Positions 1,008 to 61,167 of a stretch of DNA of 64,000 nucleotides are shown one piece after another (positions within the stretch are counted from its first letter, which is position 1; every line of letters begins with the position of its first letter). Origin of the DNA: Chloroflexota bacterium (GTDB taxonomy: Bacteria; Chloroflexota; Dehalococcoidia; Bin125); the NCBI GenBank assembly GCA_026705025.1, contig JAPPBN010000046.1:4031-68030 (forward strand). Direction: 5' to 3'. The notes under the pieces were generated by a model. It searched no databases, was not told the origin of the DNA, and saw nothing but the letters and a program-made list of their open reading frames with translations. Position numbers and translations under genes: made by a program.

Positions 1008-1933
1008 ACCAGCACGTCCAGGCCGACGGCAGCGAAGACGATGAAGAGGTAGGCGATCGAGGCGAAGAAGAGACGCATCGGCGGGGCCTGGTTGCGCCAG
1101 ACCTGCCAGGCAATCCAGATGAATGCGGCGCCCGAAATGGCGCACGTCGTCAGGTAGCACCAACTGAGGTGTCCGCCCAGCGGTCCAAGCAGGCTCACCG
1201 CAACGAGGCCGACCGAGTAGATCATGAGCTGCTTGCGTGTTTCGCGTTCGCCGGAGACGACTGGCAGCATCGGCACGTCGGCCCTGGCGTAGTCCTCGCG
1301 GTACTTCAGCGCCAGCGCCCAGAAGTGTGGCGGCGTCCACATGAAGATGACCAGGAACAGGATGAACGGCGTCCAGGTGACTTCGCCGGTCACGGCAGCC
1401 CAGCCGACCAGCGGAGGAATCGATCCGGCTGCTCCGCCAATCACAATGTTTTGAGTCGTCGAGCGCTTAAGCCAGACCGTGTAGACGAGGACGTAGAAGA
1501 GCACGGCGGCCTCGGCCAGCAGCGCCGCCAGCAGGTTGACCGTCAGTGCGAGCTGAATCCCGCCCAGGGTCGCCAGCAATACGCCCCAGGTCAGCGCCTG
1601 CCAGGGCTGGACCACGCCGGCCGGCAGTGGTCGCCCTGCGGTCCGCTCCATGATCGCGTCGATATCGCGATCGAACCATTGATTGAAGGTGTTGGCGCCG
1701 CCAGCTGTCAGGATTCCTCCCAGCAGCGTGAGCAGGATCAACACCAGTCCCTCGCCAAAGCTGCCCCTCGGCCAACCGTCAGCAGCGACAAGCATGGTCG
1801 GAACCGTGGTGACCAACAGCAGACCGATGATGCCGGGCTTGGTCAGGTCCCAGAGTCCACGCGAGAATTCAAGTGCGCGCCTCGAGCTCGGGAGTGAGGC
1901 CGTTCGTTCGAGCGTGAGCGGACGATCAGTCAT
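1004..1933 (-). CDS. ctaB: Protoheme IX farnesyltransferase (heme O synthase)
   Basis: LTKPGII, DRDIDAIMERTAGRPL and FMWTPPHFWAL motifs; located in the cox cluster. Confidence 0.97.
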   Translation of the reverse strand: MTDRPLTLERTASLPSSRRALEFSRGLWDLTKPGIIGLLLVTTVPTMLVAADGWPRGSFGEGLVLILLTLLGGILTAGGANTFNQWFDRDIDAIMERTAGRPLPAGVVQPWQALTWGVLLATLGGIQLALTVNLLAALLAEAAVLFYVLVYTVWLKRSTTQNIVIGGAAGSIPPLVGWAAVTGEVTWTPFILFLVIFMWTPPHFWALALKYREDYARADVPMLPVVSGERETRKQLMIYSVGLVAVSLLGPLGGHLSWCYLTTCAISGAAFIWIAWQVWRNQAPPMRLFFASIAYLFIVFAAVGLDVLV

Positions 1934-3072
1934 CCGTTGCTCTCACTCTCCGCCGACACGCCCGCATCGGCGATACCGGCTGGTTGCAACGCCGTGGCCG
2001 GCTCGCTGTGCCGTCGCAGGCCACCGGCGCGATAGATCGCCACCAATGCCGCTCCGGAGACCAGCAACCAGGTGATTGAGCCCATCGAAAGGTGTAGCGC
2101 TCTGGCCCAGGCATCGAAGTTGATCCAGATCATCGCCGCGCCGATAAAGATCTGTGCCACGTAGAGCGTCGCCGCCCCATGGACCATGAACGTCAGGCCG
2201 CGCGCGCGAGGTCGCAGCATGACCACGCCCATCGAGGAGGCGAACAGGGCGATCGCGCCGAACAGAACCAGGAATCGATGTCCCATGTTCCATTGAGCGT
2301 ACTCTCCGTCGGGGAACAGCCCGCCATAGCAGAACGGCCAGTTGTTGCCGCAGGCCGCGCCGCCGGGCCCGACGTGTGCGCCCGCGTCTGGTCCAGCCCC
2401 GACATGGGTGACATAGGAACCAACCACCACGACGGCATAGACGAGCACCGCCGTGAATAATGCCACCCAGGCGTAGTTCCGCGCCTGCGAGGGCGAATCG
2501 GATCCGAGCGGCGCCTCGTCGTCGCTGCTGACGACGCGCCACTGGAATGTACTCAGCCAGGAGAATGCGACCACCATCAGAATCAGCATCGCGGTGGCGA
2601 GATGCAGCGTGACGATCAGCTCCTCGAGACGCTCGGTCACAGTCAGGCCGCCGAGTACGACCTGCACGGCCAGCAGTGGAATCGAGAGCACTGCGGGCAG
2701 CCAGATCCGCACCTGATCTCGACGCTTCAGCCAGGCCACGATGGCGTAGCCGAGGATGATCAATCCCATGATCGCGGCGACCAGCCGGTGGGTCCATTCG
2801 AGCCAGACCTGATGCGCAGCGAACTCGCCGAAATCGCCCGACGGGATGACGGCGCCGTAGCAACCGGGCCAGTCGGGGCAGGCGAGCCCTGAGCCGGTCA
2901 CGCGAACAATCCCGCCCAGCGCCGTCAGCACGAGCAGGCCGATCACCAGCCCGAGGCCGACACGCTGAAATCTGGTCATCGATGCCATCTGAACCCGCTC
3001 TGGTTGCCGACCGGCACGAGTCGGCGCTGCACCCCCTAGTGTCTCACTTCTGGGCGTACTGGCGATAACCAC
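1930..3072 (-). CDS. ctaA: Heme A synthase (COX15/CtaA)
   Basis: GGIVRVTGSGLACPDWPGC, EWTHR, second Cys pair CGNNWPFC and conserved His residues; start could be 2988. Confidence 0.93.
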   Translation of the reverse strand: MVIASTPRSETLGGAAPTRAGRQPERVQMASMTRFQRVGLGLVIGLLVLTALGGIVRVTGSGLACPDWPGCYGAVIPSGDFGEFAAHQVWLEWTHRLVAAIMGLIILGYAIVAWLKRRDQVRIWLPAVLSIPLLAVQVVLGGLTVTERLEELIVTLHLATAMLILMVVAFSWLSTFQWRVVSSDDEAPLGSDSPSQARNYAWVALFTAVLVYAVVVVGSYVTHVGAGPDAGAHVGPGGAACGNNWPFCYGGLFPDGEYAQWNMGHRFLVLFGAIALFASSMGVVMLRPRARGLTFMVHGAATLYVAQIFIGAAMIWINFDAWARALHLSMGSITWLLVSGAALVAIYRAGGLRRHSEPATALQPAGIADAGVSAESESNG

Positions 3073-3139
3073 CGCGCCTCATGGTTGCCTGCTTGGCGGC
3101 AGTCAGCTCGCCGTGTCGTGGGCAGCGAGCGGGCAAGTT

Positions 3140-3432
3140 TCAGGTTCTGGGCGAACTTTTTTTTCGGGCCCTGAAACTGTGAACCGCTAGGCTGATCTTC
3201 AATGTATTGCTGAAGATCGTGGTGGTTCGGCGTCGAAATCCTTTCAGGTTTCTTCAGGCAAGTTCGGGGTAGAGCTGTTCGATCTTGTTCGGTTGCGTTC
3301 GGATGGCGGTGAGTCGATGCAGGAAGGATTGGCGAGGGTCGAGTCGGTTTGCCGGCGTGGGATGACGGGCACTGGGCGCTCCTGTCGGGGTTCAGAGGAT
3401 CGAGTACGGAGATCGTATACGGACATACGTTC
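3140..3432 (-). repeat. Dispersed SOS-box/10-bp-repeat element, ORF-less or remnant copy
   Basis: Aligns by eye with 40400-40475 (A-tract and GATCTyC-N11-GrAGATC dyad); GAAC repeats at 10-bp spacing at 3277-3300; LexA-like box at 3421-3432. Confidence 0.6.
3412..3432 (-). promoter_or_regulatory. LexA-like box GAACgtatGTCC 3 nt upstream of -10 TACGAT
   Basis: One mismatch to GAAC-N4-GTTC; same box/-10 geometry as at 40973-40992. Confidence 0.5.
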
Positions 3433-3522
3433 GCTTATCCGTCCCGCCTGTTATCCAGGTGACGAATGGGAGGGGGGGGTCTGCGCCCGGCCCGGACGCA
3501 TGAGCCGAATGCAGGCGATCGG

Positions 3523-4533
3523 CTACTGCTCGCCCGGTCGGGGGCCAAGGGTCGGAACTTCGCCATGGACGCGGATCTGCATGTCGCGGACCGTGTCGTT
3601 GCGGCGATCCTTGAATCCCTCGCGTTCCGCCCAGTAGTAAACCGTGACGATGATCGCCAGCGCGAACATCATCGATCCGGGCACCCACATGATCCCGGCG
3701 CCGATTCGTTGGTCGAGCAGCGCGTCGGGTCCCCATTCTCTGACCGCAGCCGCGGTCGCGTAGGTGTCGTAGACGGGCTCGCCGACGTTGATCAGGATGA
3801 GTCCGAGCCCGATGTTCTGCAGGATTGCCACCACCAGCAGCGCACAACGCCAGACGTGATGCGGCCGGAGCTTGGTCGCGTCGACGCCGATCACCAACCA
3901 CCAGAGCAACACCGCCCCGAGCAGGAAGACGCCGTGTTCGACGAAGTGGACCGCCTCTGAAGCAATCGCCGCGTCGTACGCGTCGGGCCAGTGCCAGCTC
4001 CAGACGCTGGCGATGTAGATCACAATCGCCGCCGGCGGCCAGGTCAGCGCGCGGACGAGCCTAGAGTTGAGGAACGGAACGAGATAGGTCGTGCGGACTC
4101 GAGGTGACGCGGCGCGCAGGGCCAGGGTCGCCGGCGCGCCGAGCAGCATCAACGGCGCGACGATCATCGTAATCATCACGTGCTGGATCATGTGCATCCA
4201 GAAGAGGTCGTCCGAGTACGTGTCGACCGGCGACATCAACCCCAGCAGCATGACCAGCCAGCCTGCGGCGAACGACCAGGCATGCCAGCGGGGAAAGTGG
4301 AAGCTGGGCGAGTCTCGGCGCAGCCGGTAGTAACCCCAGGCGTAGAGTCCGCCGACGACAATCACGATCGCCAGACCGGGCGCGTCGATGCTCCAGACCT
4401 GGAGCGCATTCAGGAGCTCGCCCGACTCGGCATAGCGCCCGTCGTGGGCCAGCAGGACCGTCGGAATCAGGGCTGCCGCGAAAGCAGCGATTGCCGCGAC
4501 CAGCGCTATCAGCGCTCGCGGTCTCCTGGTCAC
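3523..4533 (-). CDS. ctaG: Cytochrome c oxidase assembly factor, caa3-type CtaG
   Basis: HMIQH, WSWHWP.AYDAA, HFVEH and DQRIGAGIMW motifs. Confidence 0.92.
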   Translation of the reverse strand: MTRRPRALIALVAAIAAFAAALIPTVLLAHDGRYAESGELLNALQVWSIDAPGLAIVIVVGGLYAWGYYRLRRDSPSFHFPRWHAWSFAAGWLVMLLGLMSPVDTYSDDLFWMHMIQHVMITMIVAPLMLLGAPATLALRAASPRVRTTYLVPFLNSRLVRALTWPPAAIVIYIASVWSWHWPDAYDAAIASEAVHFVEHGVFLLGAVLLWWLVIGVDATKLRPHHVWRCALLVVAILQNIGLGLILINVGEPVYDTYATAAAVREWGPDALLDQRIGAGIMWVPGSMMFALAIIVTVYYWAEREGFKDRRNDTVRDMQIRVHGEVPTLGPRPGEQ

Positions 4534-12882: not shown

Positions 12883-14328
12883 ATGTCCGCTGCTGCTCCC
12901 ACGCCGGCCACCTTCGCCCCCGGACGCTACCGGCGCAACATCCGCGTGTACTACCTGTTCATGGCCTCGACCGGCTTCATGATCTTCCTGCCGGTCTGGA
13001 TCATCTACCTCATCGACGGGCGCGGCCTCTCGCTGACCGAGGTCGGCGTGATCGAATCGTTCTTCTGGCTCACCGTCATCATCGCCGAGGTGCCGACCGG
13101 AGCCATCGCCGACCGCTTCGGCCGCCGAATCTCCCTCGCGCTCGGCGCGATCATGTTTGCCCTCTCCACGGTGATCTTCGCCATCGCCGACGGATTCCCC
13201 CTCTTGCTCGGCTCCTACCTGGTCATGGGCATCGGCATGACGCTCTATTCGGGCGCCGGCGACGCGTTGCTCTTCGACACCCTCCGCGTCCTCGGTCGGA
13301 CGCGCGATTACGAGCATCACGCCGGCCGATCGCACGGCCTCTTCTTCGCCGCCATGGTGCTCGCCACCGCCGTCGGCGGACCGGCCGCCTACCTCCTGGG
13401 CTACACCGTGACGATCCTGATCTCGTCCGCCGTCTTCCTCGGATCCGCTGTCGCCGCCATGCTCCTGCGCGAGCCGCCCCGCCGCGAGTCCGATTTCCCG
13501 GTCGATCCCCTCAACGCTGCGCCGGCCAGTGTCCGCCATACCGCCTCCGACATCGCCCAGCATGAGGCGAGCGGCGTACCGATTTTCCAGGAAATGACCA
13601 AGGGGTTCGGAATCGTCTGGCGCAATCGCCCCATTCGCTACCTGATCCCGTTTGCCGCAATCACCATGACCCTGTTCGGTCTGCCGCACTTCATGGCCCA
13701 GCCTTACGTCGCCCAGCACGGCCTCAACCCGTTGGCGGGCGCTGTCGACGGATTTGTCTGGTCCGCCCTGCTGATTCCCGGACAGATCGGAACGGTGCTG
13801 GGCATGCTCGTCGCCGCCCGTCTGATCGGCAGACTCGGCGAACGCCGCTCGTTCCCGGCCATCCTCGTCTACGGCGCGGTCTTCCTGATCCCCCTCGCGA
13901 TCTGGAACCACCTCGGGCTCCTGGGCGCCATCTTCATGGTCAGCATCGCCCAGGCCGCGATCAGGCCAATCACCAACGGGTACATCAACCGGCGGATCAG
14001 CTCCGACCAGCGCGCCACCGTGCTCTCCATTTTCTCGCTGGCCCATGGCATTGCCATGAGTGTCGCCGTAGTGGTCATCTTGCCGGCCGCCGATCTCATC
14101 TCGTTCCCGGTCGCATTCGGCATCTGCCTACTGGCGATAGTGACCCTGGGCGCCGGTCTCTGGCTGCTCTGGCATTTGGCCCACCGGCGCGACCAGACCG
14201 AACGCATCCGCCGATGGTCCATTTCCGTGGCCAAACCGCAAGCGCCGCAGCGACCTCCCTCGGCAAGTCAGAACGGAAACAATGGCGAGGGCTCGGCTCT
14301 GTACCGCAATGTGCAGAACCTCGACTGA
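12883..14328 (+). CDS. MFS transporter (paralog 1 of 3)
   Basis: About 12 TM segments; EVPTGAIADRFGRR motif A. Confidence 0.93.
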   Translation: MSAAAPTPATFAPGRYRRNIRVYYLFMASTGFMIFLPVWIIYLIDGRGLSLTEVGVIESFFWLTVIIAEVPTGAIADRFGRRISLALGAIMFALSTVIFAIADGFPLLLGSYLVMGIGMTLYSGAGDALLFDTLRVLGRTRDYEHHAGRSHGLFFAAMVLATAVGGPAAYLLGYTVTILISSAVFLGSAVAAMLLREPPRRESDFPVDPLNAAPASVRHTASDIAQHEASGVPIFQEMTKGFGIVWRNRPIRYLIPFAAITMTLFGLPHFMAQPYVAQHGLNPLAGAVDGFVWSALLIPGQIGTVLGMLVAARLIGRLGERRSFPAILVYGAVFLIPLAIWNHLGLLGAIFMVSIAQAAIRPITNGYINRRISSDQRATVLSIFSLAHGIAMSVAVVVILPAADLISFPVAFGICLLAIVTLGAGLWLLWHLAHRRDQTERIRRWSISVAKPQAPQRPPSASQNGNNGEGSALYRNVQNLD

Positions 14329-14429
14329 ATAGCGGGCGCGCCTGCCCCTCGTTTTCGTAGGATTGACTGCGTTGTCGGTCTCGCCGCCCGCCCGATCCCC
14401 GTCAGACGCCCCGTCAGACACCAGGTCTC

Positions 14430-15908
14430 ATGTCTCGCCCTGAACGCTACGCGCGCAACATACCGATCTACTACCTGTTCCAGTTCGCCACTGGATTCCT
14501 GATCTGGGTGCCCGTCTGGATCATCTTCCTGCAGGACGAGCGCGGCCTCTCCTTGACCCAGGTTGGACTGATGGAAGCCGTTTTCTGGGCCTGCATGATG
14601 CTCTTCGAGGTGCCCACCGGCGCAATCGCCGACCGGTTCGGGCGGCGCACCTCGCTGGCCCTGGGTGGGTTCCTCTTCACCGGCGGCACGATCTTCTTCG
14701 TCCTCTCCGACGGCTTCGCCGGCCTCGCCATCAGCTACGTGATCATGGCGATCTCGATGACGCTCTATTCAGGCTCGGGTCACGCCCTGCTCTACGACAG
14801 TTTGCGCGTCCTCGGCCGTACCCGAGAGTACGAAAAGCACATGGGTCGCTCCGAGGCGCTGATGACCGGCGCTCTGCTCGGCGCGGCGCTGTTCGGCGGG
14901 CCCATGGCCGGTCTCTGGGGGCTCGAGACCGTCTTCCTCATCGGAGCCGGCACCATGGCCGCCGCCGGATTCGTGGCGCTCATGCTGCGCGAACCGCCGC
15001 GGACCGAAGCCGAGTTCGGTCCCGATGGCCTCCATGCGGCGCCGATCTCCGCCGCCGACGCGGCTTCCGACATGCACGGGTCCTCCGGCTTTGTTGGCTA
15101 CGTGTTCGAAGGCTTCCGCATCGTCCTGCGCCAGCGGCCGATCCTCTGGATCATCCTGCTCGCCGGGATCGTCACGGTCGCCTACGAAATGCCCAGCTTC
15201 TTCGTGCAGCCGTTCCTCCGCAGCCACGGGCTCAGCCCATCCGGCGGGCTGCTCGACGGCGCGATCTGGAGCGGTCTCATCGTGCCCGCGTTCGCCGCCA
15301 TGTCCGCCGGCTCATTGCTCGCCGCTCCGTTTGTCGCCCGCGTCGGCGAGCGTCGCGCCATCCCCCTGCTGATGTTCGGCGGAGCCTTCCTCTTCATCCC
15401 CCTGCTCATCTTCAACCACATCAGCATCGTCGCTCCGATCGCCATTCTCGGTGGCATCCACGCCGCGATCCGGCCCATCGCCACCGGCTACATCAACCGC
15501 CGAATCCGCTCCGATCAACGCGCCACCGTGCTCTCGATCTTCGAGTTGATGATGGCGGCCCAGATGGCCGTGATCGTGCCGTTGATCTCCGCCTCGGCCG
15601 ATGTCATCGACTTCCGCTTCGCCTACGCACTGTCGATCGGGGTCGTCCTGACGGTCGGCGTCGTGTTCCTCCTGTACTGGCGTCGTTCACACCGCCGCGA
15701 GCAGACGGACGCGCTCCGCCGAATCAGCTTGCGCCCAGCACCCCAGGCTGTGCCCCACGCGATCGCGCTGACGCCCGACGGCACGACGATCGGCGTCCAT
15801 CCGACCGGGATTCCCGTCCCTGGCAACGGCGTCGGCAGCGGCCCTGACTACAGGAATGGGACAGACGCCACCCCGGAGAGGGTTCCGACCCGCCAAGATC
15901 GATCGTGA
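14430..15908 (+). CDS. MFS transporter (paralog 2 of 3)
   Basis: About 12 TM segments; EVPTGAIADRFGRR; GYINRRIRSDQRATVLS. Confidence 0.93.
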   Translation: MSRPERYARNIPIYYLFQFATGFLIWVPVWIIFLQDERGLSLTQVGLMEAVFWACMMLFEVPTGAIADRFGRRTSLALGGFLFTGGTIFFVLSDGFAGLAISYVIMAISMTLYSGSGHALLYDSLRVLGRTREYEKHMGRSEALMTGALLGAALFGGPMAGLWGLETVFLIGAGTMAAAGFVALMLREPPRTEAEFGPDGLHAAPISAADAASDMHGSSGFVGYVFEGFRIVLRQRPILWIILLAGIVTVAYEMPSFFVQPFLRSHGLSPSGGLLDGAIWSGLIVPAFAAMSAGSLLAAPFVARVGERRAIPLLMFGGAFLFIPLLIFNHISIVAPIAILGGIHAAIRPIATGYINRRIRSDQRATVLSIFELMMAAQMAVIVPLISASADVIDFRFAYALSIGVVLTVGVVFLLYWRRSHRREQTDALRRISLRPAPQAVPHAIALTPDGTTIGVHPTGIPVPGNGVGSGPDYRNGTDATPERVPTRQDRS

Positions 15909-17194
15909 GCGATCCCGCGCCGGCCGATTCTGCGCCGGGCAGCGCCTTCGCGCGCAACATCCCTCTCTACTACCTCTTCCAGTTCGTGCGCGGCTTCCAT
16001 TTCTGGCTGCCCATCTGGTTTCTCTTCCTCCAGTCCCAGCATGGACTCTCATACGTGCAGATCGGCCTGATGGAGGTGCTCTTCGGGATCGCGACGATCC
16101 TCGCCGAGGTACCGACCGGAGCGATCGCCGATCGCTTCGGACGCCGTGTGGCGCTGGGCTTCGGGGCGCTCGGATTTGCCGGCGCGACCGTCCTCTTCGC
16201 CCTGCTCAACTTCCCCGCCCTGATCGTCGGCCACCTGTTCATGTCGATCACGCGCACATTAATGTCCGGCTCGGACGATGCGCTGCTCTTCGACAGCCTC
16301 AGACAGCTCAAGAAGACCGATGAGTATGAGCGTCATGCCGGACGCGCCAGCGCCGTCGCTACCGCTTCGCTCCTGGCCGCCACCATTCTCGCCGGACCGC
16401 TGGTCTCGGTGCTCGACTTCCGCACGGTCATCATCATCAGCGCCGTCGGTATGGGGCTGGCCGGCCTGATCGCGCTTTCCCTGCGCGAGCCGCCTCGCCG
16501 GGAAGCTGATCTCAGCGGAGGCGCGGAGCAGCACCCGACGCCCCCCTCGGGCGCTGCGGTCCTCACCGAGATTCGCCTCGGAATGCGGATCGCGCTGCGC
16601 ACGCCGCAGGTGCTCTGGGCCATCCTCTTTGGCGGCATCCTCCTCGCCACGCTCGACCTGCCGGAGTTCTTCATTCAGCCCTTCGTGCGCTCGCACGGCG
16701 TCGATCCCTCCCTCGACCTCACACAGGGCCTGACCTATTCCAGCCTCATGCTGCCCTCCTTCGTCGGTCTCATGGCGGGTGCGATCCTGGCCGAACCCCT
16801 GGCCAAGCGACTCGGCGAGCGTTGGTCCCTGCCCGCCGTGTTCATCGCCGGTCTGCTGGTCTTCATCCCGCTGCTGCTCGTCGATCATCTGGGCCTGGTC
16901 GCCTCGTTGGCGCTCCTGGCCACCGCAACCGCCGCCGTGCACCCGCTCGCCGGCGGCTACATCAACCGCCGCATCCCCTCCGACCAACGCGCCACCGTGC
17001 TCTCCATCTTCTCGCTCTGCACTGCCGTGATGATCACCATCGTCATCGGATCAGCCTCCGCCCTCGTCGACGCCTTCGACTTCCAGGCCGGCTTCACCCT
17101 CGCCTTCGCCCTCCTCGCCATCGGAGGACTCATCCTCTACCTCACCTGGCGCCGTGCCCACCTCCGCCAGTCCCCTCTCCAGACCTCCGCGTAG
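15905..17194 (+). CDS. MFS transporter (paralog 3 of 3)
   Basis: About 12 TM segments; EVPTGAIADRFGRR; GTG start overlaps the upstream stop codon. Confidence 0.93.
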   Translation: MSDPAPADSAPGSAFARNIPLYYLFQFVRGFHFWLPIWFLFLQSQHGLSYVQIGLMEVLFGIATILAEVPTGAIADRFGRRVALGFGALGFAGATVLFALLNFPALIVGHLFMSITRTLMSGSDDALLFDSLRQLKKTDEYERHAGRASAVATASLLAATILAGPLVSVLDFRTVIIISAVGMGLAGLIALSLREPPRREADLSGGAEQHPTPPSGAAVLTEIRLGMRIALRTPQVLWAILFGGILLATLDLPEFFIQPFVRSHGVDPSLDLTQGLTYSSLMLPSFVGLMAGAILAEPLAKRLGERWSLPAVFIAGLLVFIPLLLVDHLGLVASLALLATATAAVHPLAGGYINRRIPSDQRATVLSIFSLCTAVMITIVIGSASALVDAFDFQAGFTLAFALLAIGGLILYLTWRRAHLRQSPLQTSA

Positions 17195-28126: not shown

Positions 28127-28434
28127 GTATCGAACAGGTCGGAAATCTTGACGAAATCATGCCGGGCACGGCGCGAGTCGTCGAGGTTGGCGGACAGAGC
28201 ATCGCCCTCTGCCGGGTCGAGGACGGCGAACTGTACGCCATCGAGAATCGCTGCACCCACGACGACGGACCGCTCGGCGAGGGCGAGCTGGAAGGCGACC
28301 GGATCGAGTGTCCGCGTCACGGCGCGTTGTTCGATGTGACCACCGGTCGAGCCGTCACCCTGCCCGCGATCGGCAGGGTTCGCTGCTTCGCCGTGTCCGT
28401 CAGCGACGGTCGGGTCCAGGTCGAAGTTGACTGA
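28123..28434 (+). CDS. Rieske-type [2Fe-2S] ferredoxin
   Basis: CTH...CPRHG Rieske ligands. Confidence 0.95.
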   Translation: MSIEQVGNLDEIMPGTARVVEVGGQSIALCRVEDGELYAIENRCTHDDGPLGEGELEGDRIECPRHGALFDVTTGRAVTLPAIGRVRCFAVSVSDGRVQVEVD

Positions 28435-39163: not shown

Positions 39164-40042
39164 CTATGCATCGAGGAAGTCGTTGACCTCCTGGAGGAAG
39201 CAATCGAGCTGGTCGTGGTGGACCCAGTGACCGGCCTCGGCGATACCGACCCTCCTGGCCTGGGGGAAGGAGTTGGTCCGCTCATCATCGTTGGGGTCGC
39301 CCTGCGACTCGAGACCGGCGATCAGGAGGGTGGGCATTCGTACGCGGCCCCAGATTTCCTCGGCGTCGGTCTCGTTGAACGGATACGGCGACGACGAGCG
39401 GGCGTAGTTGTCGAACTTCCAGATGAAGGTGCCGTCCTCGTTCTGGTGGACGGCGTGGGTGGTCAGGTGCAGCGCCTGTTCGTCCGAGAGCCGCGGGTTG
39501 GCCTCCTGCATTCGCTCGACCGCGTCCTCCAGCGTCGGATAGCGGCGCGGCAGGCGTCCGGCGAAGCGGTGGGTGTCCGAGATCCACTCGGACATGCGCT
39601 GGTGCGCGGGGACGGCCGAGTGGGAGTCGGTGACGCGGCGCGAGGGGCTGAGGCCTTCGATCGCGATCAGCTTCGCCACCCGTTCGGGATAGATGCCGGC
39701 GTACTCGAGGCAGATGCGTCCGCCGAGCGAGTGCCCGAGCAGGGTGACCGGAGCCAGGTGCTTCTGTCGCACCAGCTGGGCCAGGTCGTAGACGTAGTCG
39801 ATCATCGAGTAGCCGGATCCATTCACCCACTCGGAGTCGCCGTGGCCGCGCAGGTCGGGAGCGATGACGTGGTAGCGGTCCTTGAGCGCCAGCGCGACCC
39901 AATCCCAGGAGCGGCAATGGTCGCGGCCGCCATGGACAAGGATCAGCGGCGGCGCGGTCGGATTGCCCCAGTCGACGTAATGCAGTCGGAGGCGCTGGGA
40001 GAAATAGATCTGTGATGCCGGGTAGTCGGTGAGTTGGGTCAT
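39164..40042 (-). CDS. Alpha/beta hydrolase
   Basis: HGGRDH, DLRGHGDS, GHSLGG nucleophile, AGHWVHHD. Confidence 0.95.
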   Translation of the reverse strand: MTQLTDYPASQIYFSQRLRLHYVDWGNPTAPPLILVHGGRDHCRSWDWVALALKDRYHVIAPDLRGHGDSEWVNGSGYSMIDYVYDLAQLVRQKHLAPVTLLGHSLGGRICLEYAGIYPERVAKLIAIEGLSPSRRVTDSHSAVPAHQRMSEWISDTHRFAGRLPRRYPTLEDAVERMQEANPRLSDEQALHLTTHAVHQNEDGTFIWKFDNYARSSSPYPFNETDAEEIWGRVRMPTLLIAGLESQGDPNDDERTNSFPQARRVGIAEAGHWVHHDQLDCFLQEVNDFLDA

Positions 40043-40150
40043 GGGAGGATCGTAAAGGGTGGGTTGGTAACGGAGCGTCGGGGAGGGCACGGGGAAGCCG
40101 GCAGCGGTGGGAGTGTTGCCAGTCGGCCGCTTTGGTGTTGATGGCGGGCG

Positions 40151-40210
40151 GCCCTCACCCCAACCCCCCGCATCAAGTGCGGGGCAGGCTTCTCCCTCAG
40201 TGAGAGGGGG
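40151..40210 (+). repeat. REP-like repeat interrupted by a second hairpin (ccccgcatcaagtgcgggg)
   Basis: Same arms as 41022-41056 with a 24-nt insert matching 41107-41127. Confidence 0.75.
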
Positions 40211-40234
40211 CCAGAAGGGGGGGGCGGAGGGAGG

Positions 40235-40933
40235 TTAGCCGGCGGCCTGGGCGTAGATCTGGGGTGGGATCTCCGGGTTCTGGCTGTCGGGATCGGTGAG
40301 TTGGTCGAGGAATAGGAGAATTTGTTGCTCGGATTGTCCCTTGAGGTGGGGGAAATGTTCGACGGCTTCGGCGATCAGGGCGTGGATGTCGGGTGATGGT
40401 GCGGTTTCTGCGGGAATTTTTTCTTCGGAGGGCTGAGATTCGACGATCTCCTGCTCTGGACTGGAGATCGTGGAATTGGAGGGTTCAATTTGTGCTGATT
40501 TGGTGATGGTTTCTGCCAGTTTTTGCGGCTCTTCGTCGAACAGATCGGGTTGGTCGGGGCGCTGGGCGGCTCGGCGGTGGACATCGTGGGCGGTGCGGCG
40601 GATTTCTCGGGCGAGGTGGTTGAGCTGGGTCTCCTGGGCGTCGCGGGCGCGGAGATAGTCGACCGGGGTGAGGCGGCTGGCATTGTCGGCGACGTAGTCG
40701 CGCTTGATGGCGAGGGTGAGGCGGATCTGGAGCAAATGGAGCGACTCGAGCAGGAGGTCGTCGGCCGAGGCGGCTGCGATGGTGGCCCAGTGGGTCTGGG
40801 CGAGCTTGAGATCGGCGCGGACGGTGGCGACGGAGATGTTGAGCTTCTCGGCGATCTGGCGCAAGGTGTGTCCTTGCTGGCGGAGGTGGTGGGCGCGCAT
40901 GATGCGTCGGCGGCGTTTGGGCGGGATGAACAT
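40235..40933 (-). CDS. Orphan HTH DNA-binding protein with low-complexity tail, LexA-boxed
   Basis: GHTLRQIAEKLNISVATVRADL HTH; helical middle region; QPDLF motif; AAAGG upstream. Confidence 0.8.
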   Translation of the reverse strand: MFIPPKRRRRIMRAHHLRQQGHTLRQIAEKLNISVATVRADLKLAQTHWATIAAASADDLLLESLHLLQIRLTLAIKRDYVADNASRLTPVDYLRARDAQETQLNHLAREIRRTAHDVHRRAAQRPDQPDLFDEEPQKLAETITKSAQIEPSNSTISSPEQEIVESQPSEEKIPAETAPSPDIHALIAEAVEHFPHLKGQSEQQILLFLDQLTDPDSQNPEIPPQIYAQAAG

Positions 40934-40955
40934 GATCGGGGCCTTTCGCGGTACG

Positions 40956-40992
40956 GAACGGACGTTCTGTTAACTGTAGCGAAAGGATGTTC
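40956..40992 (-). promoter_or_regulatory. Two LexA (SOS) boxes flanking -10 TACAGT
   Basis: Perfect GAACgtccGTTC at 40956-40967 and GAACatccTTTC at 40981-40992; GAAC-N4-GTTC is the known Gram-positive/Dehalococcoides LexA consensus. Confidence 0.75.
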
Positions 40993-41021
40993 GGTGTTGG
41001 TGTGTTGTGGGTGACGGAGGG

Positions 41022-41056
41022 GCCCTCACCCCAACCCTCTCCCAGAGGGAGAGGGA
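41022..41056 (+). repeat. REP-like palindromic repeat
   Basis: gccctcaccccaaccctctcccagagggagaggga. Confidence 0.8.
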
Positions 41057-41106
41057 GTCGGAACGAGAGGGGGACGGTGGGGCTGCGTGGGAGGATCGCG
41101 GTCTGG

Positions 41107-41127
41107 GCCCCGCATCAAGTGCGGGGC
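41107..41127. repeat. Second REP-like hairpin gccccgca-tcaag-tgcggggc
   Basis: 8-bp perfect stem; identical core at 40166-40185; may also act as the proB terminator. Confidence 0.7.
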
Positions 41128-41144
41128 ATCGGAGAGGGGTCGGG

Positions 41145-42272
41145 TCAATCGGTTCTTGGGAGGAGGGCGAGATTGTTGCGGTGGACGACGGCGGAGCCGT
41201 AGCTGTAGCCGAGTGCTTCGGCGATCTCGGAGGATTTCTTGCCGCGGATCTTCATCGTTTCGGCGGAGGAATAGTTGCTGATGCCGACGGCGACGGGGAT
41301 GTCGTCGGCGTCGTACAGCTGGATGATGTCGCCGCGTTCGAACTGGCCGCGGACATTGGTGATTCCGGCCGGCAGCAGGCTGCGGCCCTGCCGGGTCAGT
41401 GCGGTCACCGCGCCCTGGTCGAGGTCGATGCCTTCGCCGTTGTGGAGACCGGCGAGCAGCCAGCGTTCGCGGCTGTCGCGGATCGTGGTGTCGGCGGGGA
41501 CGAGCGTGCCCAGGCGTTCTCCGCCCGCGATCCGGCTGATCACGTTGGGCTCGTGTCCGGAAGCGATCACCACTTCGGTTCCGCCCGCGGACGCGCGGCG
41601 CGCGGCCTCCAGCTTGGCCCGCATGCCGCCCCGGCTGCGTTCGTCGACGTCGCCGGCCGCTTGCATCATCGAGCCGGGATTGTGCAGAACGGGAATCAGC
41701 TTCGCCTCCTCGTGCGAACGCGGGTCGTGATCGTAGACGCCGTCGACGTCGCTGAGCAGGATCAGCAGGTCGGCGTCGATCAGGTTGGCGATCAGCGCCG
41801 ACAGGGCGTCGTTCTCGCCGAAGGCGCCGCCGCGGAGCTCCTCGTCGGCGACGACGTCGTTCTCGTTGATGATCGGCACGACGCCGTACTGGAGCAGGCG
41901 GAGCAGCGTGTTGCGCACGTTGAGGTACCCGCGGCGCTCGGTCACATCGCCGCGCGTGATCAGCGCCTGGGCGGCGGTCAGGCTGTAGCGCTGGAGCAAC
42001 GAGTCATAACGCTGCACGAGCTGAGCCTGTCCGATCGCGGCCAGGGCCTGGCGGGCGCCGACCGAGGAACGGGTCTTGCTGACGCCGACCCGGGCGCGTC
42101 CGGCGGTCACCGCGCCGGAGGTGACGACCGCGACCTGGGCGCCCTCGAGGCGCAGTTCCGCGACCTGCCGGACGACTGCTTCGAGCACTCCGGGGTCGAG
42201 GCGGTCGCTGCCGGAGGTGAGCAGGTTGGTACCGAGCTTGCAGATGATGCGGCGAGGTTGGCTGTCGGTCAT
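41145..42272 (-). CDS. proB: Glutamate 5-kinase
   Basis: CKLGT, VTSGAV, PIINEND, ENDALSA, GGMRAK, C-terminal PUA domain. Confidence 0.97.
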   Translation of the reverse strand: MTDSQPRRIICKLGTNLLTSGSDRLDPGVLEAVVRQVAELRLEGAQVAVVTSGAVTAGRARVGVSKTRSSVGARQALAAIGQAQLVQRYDSLLQRYSLTAAQALITRGDVTERRGYLNVRNTLLRLLQYGVVPIINENDVVADEELRGGAFGENDALSALIANLIDADLLILLSDVDGVYDHDPRSHEEAKLIPVLHNPGSMMQAAGDVDERSRGGMRAKLEAARRASAGGTEVVIASGHEPNVISRIAGGERLGTLVPADTTIRDSRERWLLAGLHNGEGIDLDQGAVTALTRQGRSLLPAGITNVRGQFERGDIIQLYDADDIPVAVGISNYSSAETMKIRGKKSSEIAEALGYSYGSAVVHRNNLALLPRTD

Positions 42273-42325
42273 CGAATCACCGCCAGCCGGCCCCGTTGGC
42301 TCCGTCTTGGGCTGATAATGGCGAC

Positions 42326-43453
42326 ATGCGATGGTCGCCACAGATGGATCTCGAGGCGCTGCGCGAGCGCGGGTTGCGCTGGCGTCGCTGGTTGGTGCTG
42401 CATCTCGGCTGGTGGCGGACCGATCTGCAGCTGCTGGCCAAACGGTCGGTCTCCGAGTTCCTCGACGACCACTGCGCCCAACTCGCGGCGTCGATGTCGT
42501 ACTACGTGTTCTTCTCGCTGTTCCCGCTGGCGATCCTGGTGGTCTCGATCGCCGGGGTGCTGCTGACCGATGACAGTTTGCGCGAGGAGGTCGTGGACGG
42601 GTTGTTCGAGCTGCTGCCGTTGCAGTCGGGGGCGGGCAAGGAGGATCTGGAGCAGTTGATCGAGCCGATCGCCGACGGCCGGTCGGCGGTCGGCGTGATA
42701 TCCGTGCTCGGTCTGATCTGGGCGGCGACGGGGATGATGTCGGCGCTGCGCTTCAGCCTCGACTCGGCCTGGGACCTGGAGTTCCGCCGGCCGTTCGTGC
42801 GCGGCAAGCTGGTCGACCTGGGGCTGGTCCTGGGCGTGGGCGGGTTGCTGACGATCTCGATCGGCGCGACGGCGGTGCTGCAGGTCGGCACCGATGTGTC
42901 GGACTCGGTGTCGGACTCGCTGGGTCCGTTCGGCGCTGAGGCGACAGGATTCTTCCGCCTGGTCACGGTGCTGCTGCCGTTCCTGCTGACCTGGACGACG
43001 TTCACGATCATCTACAAGGTCGTGCCCAGCGTCACGACGCGGGTGCGCGATGTGGTCGCCGGGGCGCTGGTCGGCGCGCTGCTGTTCGAGGCGCTGAAGC
43101 ACGGATTCGCCTTCTACCTGCGCAACTTCTCCAACTATGACGCGGTGTACGGATCGCTGGGCGCAGCGATTGCCCTGCTCTTCTTCGTCTATCTCGCTGC
43201 CTGTGTGCTGCTGTTCGGCGCGGAGATCGCGGCGGAGTGGCCGCGAGTGATGTACGGCCACTACGACGATGAGGACGACGAAGCAGAGGAAGAAACCGGG
43301 CCGACGACGCTGCGCGAACGGGTGCGTCAGGCGGCGGCCCGGCAGTTGGTCCACGATCAACCGATTCCGACGAACGCTCCGGACGAAGGCGCGCGAACCG
43401 CGCGCCAGGAGCGGCGATCGGCGGAGCGCAGCCAGCGGCTCGGCGACGAGTGA
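42326..43453 (+). CDS. YihY/virulence factor BrkB family membrane protein
   Basis: AASMSYY.FFSLFP, YDAVYGSLGA, LLFGAEI. Confidence 0.92.
   Translation: MRWSPQMDLEALRERGLRWRRWLVLHLGWWRTDLQLLAKRSVSEFLDDHCAQLAASMSYYVFFSLFPLAILVVSIAGVLLTDDSLREEVVDGLFELLPLQSGAGKEDLEQLIEPIADGRSAVGVISVLGLIWAATGMMSALRFSLDSAWDLEFRRPFVRGKLVDLGLVLGVGGLLTISIGATAVLQVGTDVSDSVSDSLGPFGAEATGFFRLVTVLLPFLLTWTTFTIIYKVVPSVTTRVRDVVAGALVGALLFEALKHGFAFYLRNFSNYDAVYGSLGAAIALLFFVYLAACVLLFGAEIAAEWPRVMYGHYDDEDDEAEEETGPTTLRERVRQAAARQLVHDQPIPTNAPDEGARTARQERRSAERSQRLGDE

Positions 43454-59991: not shown

Positions 59992-61167
<1,176 letters not shown>

What the first reader, a model, noticed from the sequence alone, without database searches (positions are those of the whole stretch)
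40151..41127. Candidate undescribed SOS-inducible mini-element: LexA boxes, orphan HTH gene, embedded dyad and A-tract, flanked by REP-like repeats
Seen: a perfect and a near-perfect GAAC-N4-GTTC box bracket the -10 of a 232-aa HTH gene. The low-complexity tail of that gene overlies loosely 10-bp-phased A-rich repeats, a 9-bp dyad ACGATCTCC-N11-GGAGATCGT (40443-40471) and an A-tract, and this DNA recurs without the ORF at 3.1-3.4 kb. Both flanks carry the same two REP-like hairpins in direct orientation. No transposase or integrase is present. Inference: the layout recalls replication initiators whose iteron origin lies inside the gene (lambda O style), or a terminase-small-subunit-like HTH with its cis site. 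It may be a damage-induced selfish or regulatory module with ORF-bearing and ORF-less copies.
Basis: partly seen in the sequence, partly recalled or inferred. Interest (0 to 1): 0.85.

Follow-up and report, generated by a model that had tools for sequence, protein, structure and literature searches.

The report
SOS-controlled single-gene cassette family
This is one copy of a many-copy DNA-binding gene, found in a single genus of sponge-associated Chloroflexota, that carries its own DNA-damage-controlled promoter and comes, goes and is swapped at fixed gaps between housekeeping genes with no visible enzyme to move it.

Summary
The main observations hold. A 232-aa HTH gene (40235-40933, minus strand) has a perfect and a near-perfect GAAC-N4-GTTC box bracketing a TACAGT -10. 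It contains a 9-bp dyad and an A-tract, and generic REP-like hairpins flank it. One observation fails: the tail DNA does not recur at 3.1-3.4 kb.

- **LexA control:** The proximal box differs by one base in 16 from the box upstream of this genome's own lexA. The same motif precedes an ImuB-like gene and a radical-SAM gene.
- **Copy number and promoter:** The gene has about 17 paralogs here. Among 62 copies from 12 genomes, 54 keep the box, mostly 33-34 nt upstream of the start codon.
- **Distribution:** The family was found only in this genus (2 of 401 sampled phylum genomes). Within the genus it is patchy (11 of 18).
- **Site turnover:** Between proB and the hydrolase gene the cassette is present, absent or inverted among relatives. 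A second site holds this family, a divergent member, an unrelated LexA-box gene, or nothing.

I found no transposase, terminal repeats, iterons or ORF-less copies. The fold is an HTH plus a helical hairpin with no specific match.

Most likely this is an SOS-derepressed, proliferating promoter-plus-gene cassette. Its protein function and its mobility mechanism are unknown.

The parts
40150..40224 (.). REP-like units downstream of the gene: GGCCCTCACCCCAACCC, hairpin CCCCGCATCAAGTGCGGGGCA and hairpin TCTCCCTCAGTGAGAGGG. These are generic genome-wide repeats, not part of the conserved unit.
   Evidence: D1, D3, D6, I1. Genome-wide strand-hit counts are 216, 72 and 104. Counts per genus genome range from 0 to 191 and are not coupled to the family.
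40235..40933 (-). Gene for a 232-aa protein. It has an HTH (aa 5-45), a long helical hairpin (helices 35-77 and 90-123), a disordered acidic linker (aa 126-180) with conserved short motifs, a small helical C-terminal domain (aa 181-213), and ends in AAG.
   Evidence: AF2 pLDDT block means are above 90 for residues 1-120, about 36-49 for 131-180 and 74-80 for 181-210.
40538..40552 (-). QPDLF motif (aa 128-132) at the end of the folded domain. Q128 is invariant, and P129 and L131 are conserved in at least 90% of 68 sequences. From recall, it resembles a beta-clamp-binding pentapeptide.
   Evidence: conservation. The resemblance is recalled, not tested by any tool result that counts.
40438..40476 (.). 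Dyad ACGATCTCC-N11-GGAGATCGT (core 40443-40471), which encodes TISSPEQEIV. Rare codons are retained, so there is a DNA- or RNA-level constraint of unknown nature.
   Evidence: I5. Codon retention: ACG 26 of 27 Thr (background 10%), AGT 25 of 29 Ser (2%), CCA 25 of 25 Pro (12%). RNA fold -17.8 kcal/mol, z = -2.9. No covariation.
40415..40426 (-). A-tract GAAGAAAAAATT encoding EEKI. GAA and AAA are kept in 24 of 29 copies at aa 171 and 172. Similarity between this copy and its 94%-identical paralog (C53) stops just 3' of it in gene sense, at about 40403.
   Evidence: (C53 match covers window 40403-41143).
40289..40393 (-). C-terminal module (LIAEAVEHFPHLKGQS..ILxFLDQLTDP). It is present in the 'long' variants, replaced in the 203-aa 'short' variants, and also found on a distant paralog (C19).
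40942..40947 (-). Ribosome-binding site GAAAGG, 8 nt upstream of the ATG.
   Evidence: Read; conserved in most copies.
40954..40969 (-). Proximal LexA-type box cAGAACgtccGTTCcg (perfect GAAC-N4-GTTC at 40956-40967), just downstream of the -10.
   Evidence: The box upstream of lexA is cAGAACggccGTTCcg. 54 of 62 family copies have GAAC-N4-GTNY within 90 nt upstream, against 131 of 20000 random windows.
40973..40978 (-). -10-like hexamer TACAGT (TAYAGT across the family).
   Evidence: The sigma-70 consensus scan found no full promoter.
40981..40992 (-). Distal LexA-type box GAACATCCTTTC, with one mismatch to GAAC-N4-GTTC on the gene strand.
   Evidence: The tandem two-box arrangement occurs in 36 of 62 copies and in 0 of 20000 random windows.
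40993..41020 (-). Conserved C/A-rich upstream element CCTCCGtCACCCACAACACACCAACACC, which marks the 5' edge of the repeated unit.
   Evidence: sharp onset of identity among five G008 copies at CCGCAAACCACGAC.
41021..41128 (.). REP-like units upstream of the gene: the same two types as on the other flank plus the CCTCTCCCAGAGGGAGAGG hairpin. These are generic repeats.
   Evidence: (D8).
39164..40090 (-). Flanking alpha/beta-hydrolase gene. Its start probably lies at the conserved TACGATCCTCCCATG near 40042. It forms one side of the insertion site.
41145..42341 (-). Flanking proB (glutamate 5-kinase, AA_kinase + PUA domains). It forms the other side of the insertion site.

Best explanation
The interval holds one copy of a genus-restricted, proliferating single-gene cassette, made of about 83 nt of promoter plus one ORF.

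INFERRED: REGULATION. The promoter is built for LexA repression. One LexA-type box overlaps the spacer/-35 side and one sits just downstream of the -10. After DNA damage, RecA-stimulated self-cleavage of this genome's canonical LexA would derepress all copies at once.

SHOWN: PROTEIN ARCHITECTURE. The product has an HTH, a helical hairpin, a long acidic disordered tail with conserved short motifs, and a small C-terminal helical module.

INFERRED: PROTEIN FUNCTION. It probably acts as a DNA-bound regulator or adaptor, possibly as a dimer via the hairpin. Its DNA target and any partners are unknown.

SHOWN: MOBILITY AT THE EVOLUTIONARY LEVEL. The family is not detected in the most divergent genomes of the genus that were searched. 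It has 5-17 copies where present. Copies cluster by genome rather than by locus. Two intergenic sites are occupied, empty, inverted, or occupied by a different LexA-box cassette in different species.

NOT SHOWN: MECHANISM OF SPREAD. The cassette encodes no recombinase and has no terminal repeats. Copying into REP-rich intergenic hot spots by host recombination or gene conversion, or by a factor acting in trans, is my guess.
For: LEXA CONTROL
- One lexA gene is present (PF01726). Its ORF shows the AAG cleavage site, GDSM and KR motifs (read by eye; the motif names are recalled).
- The box upstream of lexA, cAGAACggccGTTCcg, differs from ours in 1 of 16 positions.
- AGAAC-N4-GTWC gives 47 strand hits against 21-29 in mononucleotide shuffles. 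Of these, 10 lie just upstream of family copies. Others precede lexA, an IMS/ImuB-like gene (PF00817, E = 8e-8), a radical-SAM gene (PF04055, E = 5e-15), and two further small multicopy families.
- GAAC-N4-GTNY occurs upstream of 54 of 62 copies from 12 genomes, mostly 33-34 nt from the start codon. Background is 131 of 20000.
- GAAC-N4-GTTC is the LexA motif of B. subtilis and M. tuberculosis (passage in PMC3323433).

FAMILY AND DISTRIBUTION
- 17 paralogous loci plus two contig-end fragments in this genome.
- Found in 11 of 18 same-genus genomes and 0 of 12 genomes from other families of the class.
- Profile search hits 2 of 401 phylum genomes, both in this genus.
- Only 102 of 1.84 billion representative proteins reach E <= 1e-3.

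TURNOVER AT THE proB SITE (20 fetched relatives)
- Occupied in 6, one of them inverted (G035) and one without a promoter (G038).
- Without the gene in 12. Eight of these have proB and the hydrolase ORF 12-20 nt apart or overlapping.
- The contig ends right after proB in 2.
- In the flank-protein tree, occupied G008 sits with three empty genomes at 99/99 support.
- proB-site copies are polyphyletic and group with same-genome paralogs (quick tree).

TURNOVER AT THE SECOND SITE
- Holds this family in G000 and G005.
- Holds divergent members in G013 and G010; in G010 the gene faces the other way.
- Holds a family-2 gene in G008, G017 and G040.
- Holds nothing in G006, G039, G044, G048, G038 and G016.

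UNIT BOUNDARIES AND SOLITARY STATE
- Unit boundaries are sharp.
- No neighbouring gene recurs beside the 17 paralogs.

PROTEIN
- The fold is confident for residues 1-125. The HTH and hairpin contain invariant residues.
Against: - No experiment shows LexA binding or damage induction. No RNA run holding the sequence was available.
- The recA promoter has only a degenerate match (AGAAC-GTTT-GCTT by eye); the search pattern found none there.
- In 18 of 62 copies the second half-site ends in T rather than C. 8 of 62 lack the box pattern, and 4 of those have a GTTC-N6-7-GAAC arrangement instead.
- The box could also, or instead, be an autoregulatory operator of the HTH family itself.
- No transposase, terminal inverted repeat or clear target-site duplication was found. 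A shared CAGG at both junctions of site 2 may be chance.
- Several deep subfamilies look orthologous across species. Part of the family is therefore stably inherited, and gene conversion plus loss could mimic some of the turnover.
- The family tree is the quick version with many open forks, and the flank tree rests on two proteins.
- The protein's function is not identified by any search.
Confidence: 0.55

Rival explanations
1. An ordinary, vertically inherited paralog family of SOS-controlled transcription regulators. Copies arose by old duplications, are homogenised within genomes by gene conversion, and are often deleted. Nothing about them is mobile or selfish.
For: - Several subfamilies (C44a, C49 and C48 types) have one member per genome across species, as orthologs would.
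- The proB-site copy is syntenic in at least 7 genomes.
- The HTH and hairpin are under clear purifying constraint.
- No mobility enzyme or terminal repeats were found.
Against: - The family was not found in 7 of 18 genus genomes, including the most divergent ones (G003, G014, G015, G012), nor outside the genus. Each of about 17 dispersed sites therefore had to be gained.
- Short unoccupied spacers are shared across both major clades.
- One copy is inverted (G035).
- One site holds members of different subfamilies or an unrelated LexA-box gene.
- All five aligned G008 copies share the same sharp unit boundaries with unrelated flanks.
Confidence: 0.25
2. The conserved GAAC-N4-GTNY boxes are operators of the HTH family itself (auto- and cross-regulation among paralogs), not LexA sites. 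The likeness to the lexA box is only partial overlap of specificity.
For: - The first half-site (AGAAC) is far better kept than the second.
- A family of about 17 HTH proteins needs targets, and every copy carries the site.
- The recA promoter lacks a good box.
Against: - The same motif, at the same place relative to the -10, precedes lexA, an ImuB-like gene, a radical-SAM gene and two unrelated small-gene families.
- This gene set is typical of a LexA regulon, and the motif equals the LexA motif known from Gram-positive bacteria (PMC3323433 passage).
- Genomes of the genus that lack the family were not checked for the box at lexA.
Confidence: 0.1
3. One reading: a replication-initiator-like or small-terminase-like protein whose cis site (iterons or dyad plus an AT-rich tract) lies inside its own gene. 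The unit would then be a replicating or packaged selfish module.
For: - The dyad and A-tract keep rare codons, so some DNA- or RNA-level constraint exists inside the gene.
- ESM Atlas lists Terminase_5 clusters at 0.88, below the tool's bar.
- A small terminase appears at Foldseek rank 47, E = 1.6.
Against: - No iterons: TRF gives 0 rows and no repeated unit appears in the gene.
- No match to any initiator or terminase family in Pfam, PHROGs, NCBIfam or PDB at a meaningful level.
- No ORF-less copies of the site exist.
- Arm changes are not compensated.
- No phage or plasmid genes lie nearby.
Confidence: 0.05

Closest known systems
REP13E12 (13E12) repeat family of Mycobacterium tuberculosis
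   Same: A multicopy repeated element or gene family whose members are mostly under direct LexA control through GAAC-N4-GTTC-type SOS boxes. The authors describe them as insertion elements (passages of PMC3381160).
   Different: No sequence or domain relation was seen in any search here. The 13E12 elements are said there to contain phage attachment sites. The present cassette is a promoter plus a single HTH gene with no att-like site identified, and it occurs in a different phylum.
Integron gene cassettes with an SOS-controlled integrase
   Same: Single-gene units that are gained, lost and swapped at a fixed place, linked to the SOS response. The abstract of PMC3323433 (search listing) mentions SOS regulation of integrases in Vibrio superintegrons.
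   Different: Each cassette here has its own promoter. Cassettes are scattered singly rather than arrayed. No attC-like element specific to them was found. Only two tyrosine recombinase genes exist in the genome; I did not test whether either is an IntI.
REP / REPIN elements mobilised by RAYT transposases
   Same: Short GC-rich hairpin repeats, in up to about a hundred copies per type, fill intergenic regions and flank the gene on both sides.
   Different: No Y1/RAYT gene was found in this 97.6%-complete genome (PF01797, 0 hits). REP counts are not coupled to the presence of the HTH family. The REPs lie outside the conserved unit.
IS3-family OrfA-type proteins (transposase-type HTH plus coiled coil)
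   Same: A small protein with an N-terminal HTH of the kind found in transposases and resolvases (HTH_7, HTH_23, HTH_28, HTH_38 hits), followed by long helices. It is multicopy. The OrfA architecture itself is recalled, not tested.
   Different: No orfB or DDE domain in any frame, no terminal inverted repeats, and no Pfam HTH_Tnp_1 hit. The A-run lies downstream of the hairpin, not upstream as at a frameshift site.

Membership tests
LexA (SOS) regulon member | The genome encodes a LexA of the self-cleaving type. | tested here: met
   PF01726 hit at C33, 46.7 bits. The ORF shows AAG, GDSM and KR motifs (read by eye; the motif names are recalled).
LexA (SOS) regulon member | The promoter carries an operator matching the organism's LexA motif, placed so as to block RNA polymerase. 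| tested here: met
   A perfect GAAC-N4-GTTC just downstream of TACAGT and a second box upstream of it. One mismatch in 16 to the box upstream of lexA.
LexA (SOS) regulon member | The same motif occurs at canonical SOS genes of the genome. | tested here: met
   Present at lexA, an IMS/ImuB-like gene and a radical-SAM gene. recA has only a degenerate match.
LexA (SOS) regulon member | The operator is conserved in orthologs and paralogs. | tested here: met
   54 of 62 copies against 131 of 20000 background windows.
LexA (SOS) regulon member | LexA binding, or induction by DNA damage, is demonstrated. | not testable with these tools
   No RNA run was listed. The organism is an uncultured symbiont.
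Autonomous insertion sequence / transposon | It encodes a transposase or recombinase. | tested here: not met
   The only ORF is the HTH protein. No enzymatic domain was found in it or in longer relatives.
Autonomous insertion sequence / transposon | It has terminal inverted repeats and target-site duplications. | tested here: inconclusive
   No inverted ends at the unit boundaries. A possible CAGG duplication at site 2 may be chance.
MITE / REPIN | The element is bounded by its own specific hairpin or inverted ends, with a cognate transposase in the genome. | tested here: not met
   The flanking hairpins are generic and uncoupled from the family. PF01797 gives 0 hits.
Integron cassette | A promoterless ORF plus attC, arrayed next to intI. 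| tested here: not met
   It has its own promoter. Copies are solitary and scattered. IntI was not specifically tested.
Iteron-type initiator with an origin inside the gene (lambda O-like) | Several direct-repeat iterons next to an AT-rich tract inside the gene. | tested here: not met
   TRF gives 0 rows. There is only one dyad and no repeated unit.
Iteron-type initiator with an origin inside the gene (lambda O-like) | Protein homology to a replication initiator. | tested here: inconclusive
   Nothing in Pfam, PHROGs, NCBIfam, the PDB profile search or the fold searches.
Small terminase subunit | Sequence or fold match to a TerS family. | tested here: inconclusive
   PHROG terminase small subunit E = 0.062. 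G20C TerS at Foldseek rank 47, E = 1.6. Atlas Terminase_5 clusters at 0.88.
Pfam HTH_7 / sigma-70 region 4-like HTH | Score at or above the curated cut-off. | tested here: inconclusive
   HTH_7 23.9 against 23.8 bits (just over). HTH_11 23.7 against 25. Sigma70_r4_2 23.5 against 25.7. The fold agrees with a three-helix HTH: DeoR/LsrR N-terminal domains at Z 7.1-7.7.

The most novel reading that the evidence does not exclude
Promoter-plus-ORF units with LexA operators form a so far undescribed class of non-autonomous, SOS-triggered mobile gene cassettes. The class would include this HTH family and at least one unrelated small acidic-tailed family that can occupy the same hot spot. The cassettes are exchanged at fixed intergenic landing sites in a sponge-symbiont lineage by machinery supplied in trans. 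The HTH protein is the element's own DNA-binding factor, and the rare-codon-conserved dyad inside its gene is its cis site.
Probability: 0.15. Interest if true: 0.85.

Novelty: new variant of a known kind. Interest (0 to 1): 0.6.

Why it matters
LexA-controlled mobile DNA is known for prophages, integrating elements, integron integrases and the mycobacterial 13E12 repeats. All of these carry or depend on an identifiable recombinase or phage.

Here a gene of about 0.8 kb carrying only its own SOS promoter has spread to about 17 sites in a 3.1-Mb genome. Within one genus it is gained, lost, inverted and replaced by other LexA-box genes at the same sites. If that reflects real mobility, it points to a damage-linked way of moving single genes that needs no element-encoded enzyme.

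It also shows that roughly 25-30 promoters in this symbiont carry the box. Most of them drive lineage-specific genes of unknown function, so the SOS response of these uncultured sponge symbionts is largely uncharted.

Tried and rejected
ORF-LESS COPY AT 3.1-3.4 KB
- Rejected.

FOLD AND FAMILY SEARCHES (no specific relative)
- PDB profile search: only a DeoR HTH, E = 0.065.
- Foldseek against PDB: nothing at E <= 1e-3.
- VIA-align wide: best Z 8.1, generic helical hairpins.
- PHROGs, PADLOC and NCBIfam: generic HTH hits only.
- ESM Atlas: all scores below 0.9.
- Rfam over the whole window: 0 matches.
- Sigma-70 consensus scan: 0 promoters.

BETA-CLAMP IDEA
- I sent this genome's DnaN with residues 105-175 (QPDLF motif) to complex prediction. 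The result was no verdict (score 0.14, mark 0.32) and the controls were not run. This is evidence neither for nor against binding.

RNA HAIRPIN AT THE DYAD
- It folds at -17.8 kcal/mol, z = -2.9. Pair counts equal the shuffles (79.6% against 78.8 +/- 0.8; 113 of 500 shuffles as high), and seven C-A mismatches are uncompensated. Structure is therefore not supported, and the rare-codon conservation stays unexplained.

LONG AND SHORT TAILS AS FRAME-SHIFTED VERSIONS OF ONE DNA
- The alignment shows short blocks in other frames, but it is too weak to claim.

CANDIDATE MOBILISERS
- REP hairpins as a partner of the family: rejected.
- RAYT: none found.
- Recurrent neighbour gene: none.
- Two tyrosine and eight serine recombinase hits exist elsewhere in the genome, with no link seen to the cassettes.

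EXPRESSION
- No RNA holder was listed.

LAID CONTIGS OF FOUR SPONGE-METAGENOME RUNS
- They break at the REPs and inside the multicopy gene.
- Records with 0 differences cover 39300-40179, 40171-40471 and 41105-42300. No record spans the element.
- The many REP-to-REP 'joints' have short sides and probably come from other REP loci.
- None of this is used as evidence. The best holder may be the window's own sample.

LITERATURE
- Three searches found no description of such a family: LexA + Chloroflexi + SOS (19 papers listed, titles and abstract starts seen); LexA box + multicopy + repetitive element + SOS; and two Dehalococcoides + LexA searches (0 papers).
- My recollection that a Dehalococcoides LexA uses the Gram-positive box and that cyanobacterial boxes are related is recall only. 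Only a reference-list title was seen.
- Supplements were not consulted.

Full report
WHAT IS IN THE INTERVAL

The minus strand of 40235-40933 encodes a 232-aa protein. Its first ~45 residues match several helix-turn-helix models at borderline scores: HTH_7 scores 23.9 bits against a cut-off of 23.8, and HTH_11, Sigma70_r4_2 and HTH_23 fall just below their cut-offs. The neighbours, both on the same strand, are glutamate 5-kinase (proB, 41145-42341; AA_kinase + PUA) upstream and an alpha/beta hydrolase (39164-40090) downstream.

Reading the gene strand upstream of the ATG gives the following order:
- a GAAAGG ribosome-binding site
- a perfect GAAC-N4-GTTC box (40956-40967)
- a TACAGT -10-like hexamer (40973-40978)
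- a second box with one mismatch (40981-40992)
- a C/A-rich element (40993-41020)

The repeat finder extends it to 14-nt arms. The A-tract is at 40415-40426. Both flanks carry the same 17-nt and 21-nt REP-like units in direct orientation at 100% identity. Tandem Repeats Finder finds nothing.

WHAT DOES NOT HOLD

The tail DNA does not recur at 3.1-3.4 kb.
- Sensitive blastn of 40235-40600 against the whole genome finds no match there.
- The best local alignment scores 26. Shuffles give 21.1 +/- 2.2 and random segments of the window give 22.7 +/- 2.8.
- The 29-nt dyad occurs five times in the genome, always inside family copies, two of them truncated by contig ends.

The A-rich phasing exists but at about 11.5 nt, close to four codons, rather than 10. 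The REP-like hairpins are a generic repeat family. In this genome the three types give 216, 72 and 104 strand hits. Across 37 genomes of the genus the commonest type ranges from 0 to 191 hits per strand, with no relation to whether the HTH family is present. For example, G004 has 9 family matches and 5 hairpins, while G002 has no family match and 51 hairpins.

THE ORGANISM

The window is part of a 3.10-Mb, 54-contig, 64% G+C assembly rated 97.6% complete. Named homologs come from 'Chloroflexi/Chloroflexota bacterium' metagenome-assembled genomes. The runs that hold the sequence are labelled sponge metagenomes.

LEXA CONTROL

The genome has one lexA. Its product shows the Ala-Gly site and the Ser and Lys motifs of self-cleaving LexA (read by eye; the motif names are from memory).

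Upstream of lexA lies cAGAACggccGTTCcg. The proximal box of our gene is cAGAACgtccGTTCcg, one difference in 16.

Genome-wide, AGAAC-N4-GTWC gives 47 strand hits against 21-29 in mononucleotide shuffles. The hits distribute as follows:
- 10 lie just upstream of paralogs of our gene
- others precede lexA, an IMS/ImuB-like gene (PF00817) and a radical-SAM gene (PF04055)
- 5 precede members of a second small multicopy family
- 2 precede members of a third

In all of these the box directly follows a -10-like TAnnnT. The recA promoter has only a degenerate version.

Across 62 family copies taken from 12 genomes, 54 have GAAC-N4-GTNY within 90 nt upstream, and 36 of those have the stricter GTNC. The box is mostly 33-34 nt from the start codon. 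Thirty-six copies have the tandem two-box arrangement. Random 90-nt windows give 131, 83 and 0 of 20000 respectively.

GAAC-N4-GTTC is the LexA motif of Bacillus subtilis and Mycobacterium tuberculosis (passage in PMC3323433). I conclude that LexA control is very likely, though it rests on comparison only.

A MULTICOPY, GENUS-RESTRICTED FAMILY

tblastn finds 17 paralogous loci plus two contig-end fragments in this genome. They fall into two sets:
- a closer set (94% to 43% identity)
- a distant set that shares the HTH and the box but has other C-terminal parts, some with Cys-x-x-Cys pairs

The family was found as follows:
- 11 of 18 other genomes of the genus, with up to 12 matches each, and none of 12 genomes from other families of the class
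- with a 68-sequence profile, 2 of 401 sampled genomes of the phylum, both in this genus
- 102 of 1.84 billion representative proteins at E <= 1e-3

The longer hits checked carry no domain beyond the HTH.

TURNOVER AT THE proB SITE

I fetched the region downstream of proB in 20 relatives.
- Six carry a family member between proB and the hydrolase gene. One is in the opposite orientation (G035). One has its ATG only 14 nt after the proB stop and no promoter (G038).
- An eighth occupied genome, G018, is seen from match coordinates at a contig end.
- Twelve lack the gene. In eight of these the proB stop and the extended hydrolase ORF are 12-20 nt apart or overlap, which leaves a spacer of about 57 nt before the conserved TACGATC..ATG. 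Four others have unrelated inserts of 76-271 nt.
- In two genomes the contig ends right after proB.

A tree of the two flanking proteins places occupied G008 with three empty genomes at 99/99 support. It places empty G013 and G040 among occupied genomes. In a quick tree of the N-terminal 130 residues of 61 copies, the proB-site copies do not group together. Each groups with other copies from its own or a sister genome. This tree has many unresolved forks.

A SECOND SITE SHOWS CASSETTE REPLACEMENT

I examined the 94%-identical paralog on contig C53 in the same way. The same gap lies between a gene start (..GGTATTCCAT) and the stop of the next gene (GAATGTTATCGCAGG). Its contents differ by genome:
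- a close family member in G000 and G005
- a divergent member in G013
- a divergent member facing the other way in G010
- a family-2 gene with its own AGAAC-N4-GTAC box in G008, G017 and G040 (tblastn 54-77% identity)
- nothing in G006, G039, G044, G048, G038 and G016 (no HTH or family-2 match in any; flanking matches 8-102 nt apart)

Most occupied genomes share the right-hand junction TCAGGTGCGGGC. That suggests one old insertion followed by exchange of the content.

THE REPEATED UNIT

Five G008 copies with 450-nt flanks align at about 90-95% identity from CCGCAAACCACGAC, about 83 nt before the ATG, exactly to the stop codon. Outside that span they share nothing except assorted REP hairpins. 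There are no inverted ends. No gene family recurs next to the 17 paralogs. The genome has no Y1/RAYT gene. It has two tyrosine recombinases and eight serine recombinase hits with no visible link to the cassettes.

THE PROTEIN

AlphaFold2 with the 68-sequence alignment gives:
- pLDDT above 90 for residues 1-120, comprising a three-helix HTH and a long helical hairpin
- a disordered acidic stretch at 126-180
- a small helical module at 181-213

Neither Foldseek nor the exhaustive aligner finds a specific relative. They return only DeoR/LsrR-type HTH domains and generic helical hairpins.

The disordered part holds three conserved motifs: QP[DG]L[FY], TISSPEQEIV and EEKxP. The first resembles a beta-clamp-binding peptide by my recollection. 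The one complex prediction gave no verdict and counts for nothing.

THE DYAD

The dyad encodes TIS...EIV. Among 29 copies the codons are nearly fixed, including rare ones:

| Residue | Codon kept | Share of that codon elsewhere in these genes |
|---|---|---|
| Thr | ACG in 26 of 27 | 10% |
| Ser | AGT in 25 of 29 | 2% |
| Pro | CCA in 25 of 25 | 12% |
| Ile (next to the A-tract) | ATT in 11 of 15 | 6% |

So there is a constraint on the nucleotides as well as on the peptide. It is not shown to be a hairpin. Seven GAG-to-GAA changes and two changes in the Val codon are not compensated. Pair counts do not exceed shuffles. The cause is unexplained. Similarity between this copy and its closest paralog ends just 3' of the A-tract, where 'long' and 'short' C-terminal variants diverge.

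READING

The best-supported account is a LexA-repressed, single-gene cassette family that has multiplied within one symbiont genus and turns over at intergenic hot spots. Regulation and architecture are read from sequence and comparison. Evolutionary mobility follows from the distribution. The mechanism of movement and the protein's role are inferred at best.

The main rival is an ordinary paralog family with gene conversion and loss. Orthologous-looking subfamilies and the lack of any mobility signature favour it. Four findings argue against it:
- the family's absence from the divergent genus members
- the inverted copy
- the shared empty sites
- the replacement by unrelated cassettes

COMPARISON WITH KNOWN SYSTEMS

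The nearest described case is the 13E12 repeat family of M. tuberculosis. Most of its members are directly LexA-controlled, and the authors call them insertion elements (PMC3381160, passages). There is no sequence relation. Integron cassettes, REPIN/RAYT systems, IS3 OrfA proteins, lambda O-type initiators and small terminases each share one trait but fail defining features (see the membership table). Three literature searches found no description of this family. The search covers open-access texts only.

VERDICT

The finding is real and more interesting than a stray regulator, but less exotic than an origin-bearing mini-replicon. I rate it a new variant of a known kind (an SOS-controlled repeated gene or element family), interest 0.6.

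Noticed in passing
G000 contigs outside the window: C15:17950-18249, C15:68722-68934, C3:77691-77957, C1:33170-33463, C2:24011-24271, C18:58732-59034, C17:6442-6780: A second multicopy family (7 copies, about 100-119 aa, starting MPNPYHFRANIDRLWR). At least 5 copies have an AGAAC-N4-GTAC box right after a -10-like hexamer. They end in an acidic tail (..EEDADPL..DEDDDPL) that, from recall, resembles the SSB C-terminal tip. No Pfam, PADLOC or NCBIfam match. One occupies the same hot spot as the HTH cassette in G008, G017 and G040.
   Followed up: partly
G000 C45: box at 28415 (-) and C54: box at 60811 (+), outside the window: A third small family (111 and 143 aa, sharing ..LQ..ATxGPxY[IV]Q). Both have an AGAACATATGTAC box and acidic C-termini (..EEDDDYP..MDDDDVP). 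No family match.
   Followed up: no
G000 C14:509 and C14:3597, C15:6166, C40:1588, C42:2875, C11:418, C4:27544 (mostly near contig ends): Seven near-identical large serine recombinase genes (Resolvase domain, open frames up to about 650 aa). Five are preceded by a (GA)TGTTTCGAACA near-palindrome and a sixth by only the CGAACAT half; the palindrome contains the same CGAACAT half-site as the LexA-type box but in tail-to-tail arrangement. No link to the cassettes was seen.
   Followed up: partly
window 12918-17011: Three tandem paralogous units of about 1.5 kb (63-72% identity over 300-nt and 163-nt blocks, spacing 1469-1520 nt). This looks like a tandem gene triplication (D1, D2, D9).
   Followed up: no
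window 3073-3522: A G+C-poorer gap of about 450 nt (by eye) between two minus-strand membrane-protein ORFs (1930-3072 and 3523-4533), with a T8 run at about 3154-3168. No similarity beyond chance and no Rfam match.
   Followed up: partly
L014 (G038:C2:2286600-2290600), positions 199-800: In one relative the proB-site copy starts 14 nt after the proB stop codon, with no box or -10. It is probably co-transcribed with proB and has escaped LexA control.
   Followed up: no
family-wide; G000 C53 and C5a; L007, L012, L034: 203-aa 'short' variants replace the C-terminal module by ..IRPPVxLPRPxRNGAKPxPIQxPAAG yet end in the same AAG-stop. Parts of the 3' DNA align to the long form in other reading frames, but only weakly.
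   Followed up: partly
L003 (G035:C22:147500-151500), about 1490-1640: Next to the inverted proB-site copy lies a tandem array of a unit of about 21-22 nt (GGGCGCGGGAATGACGGAGTT, about 5 copies by eye). This is another repeat type of the genus.
   Followed up: no
G000 C54, ORF downstream of the box at 34077 (-): The LexA-box ImuB-like protein contains QLSFF (read by eye). From recall this is a classical beta-clamp-binding motif, for comparison with QPDLF in the HTH family.
   Followed up: no
G008:C1:631125-631775 and 2005049-2005621; G018:C24:111570-111749: Some family copies in relatives carry an in-frame TAA stop, so the family includes decaying members.
   Followed up: no
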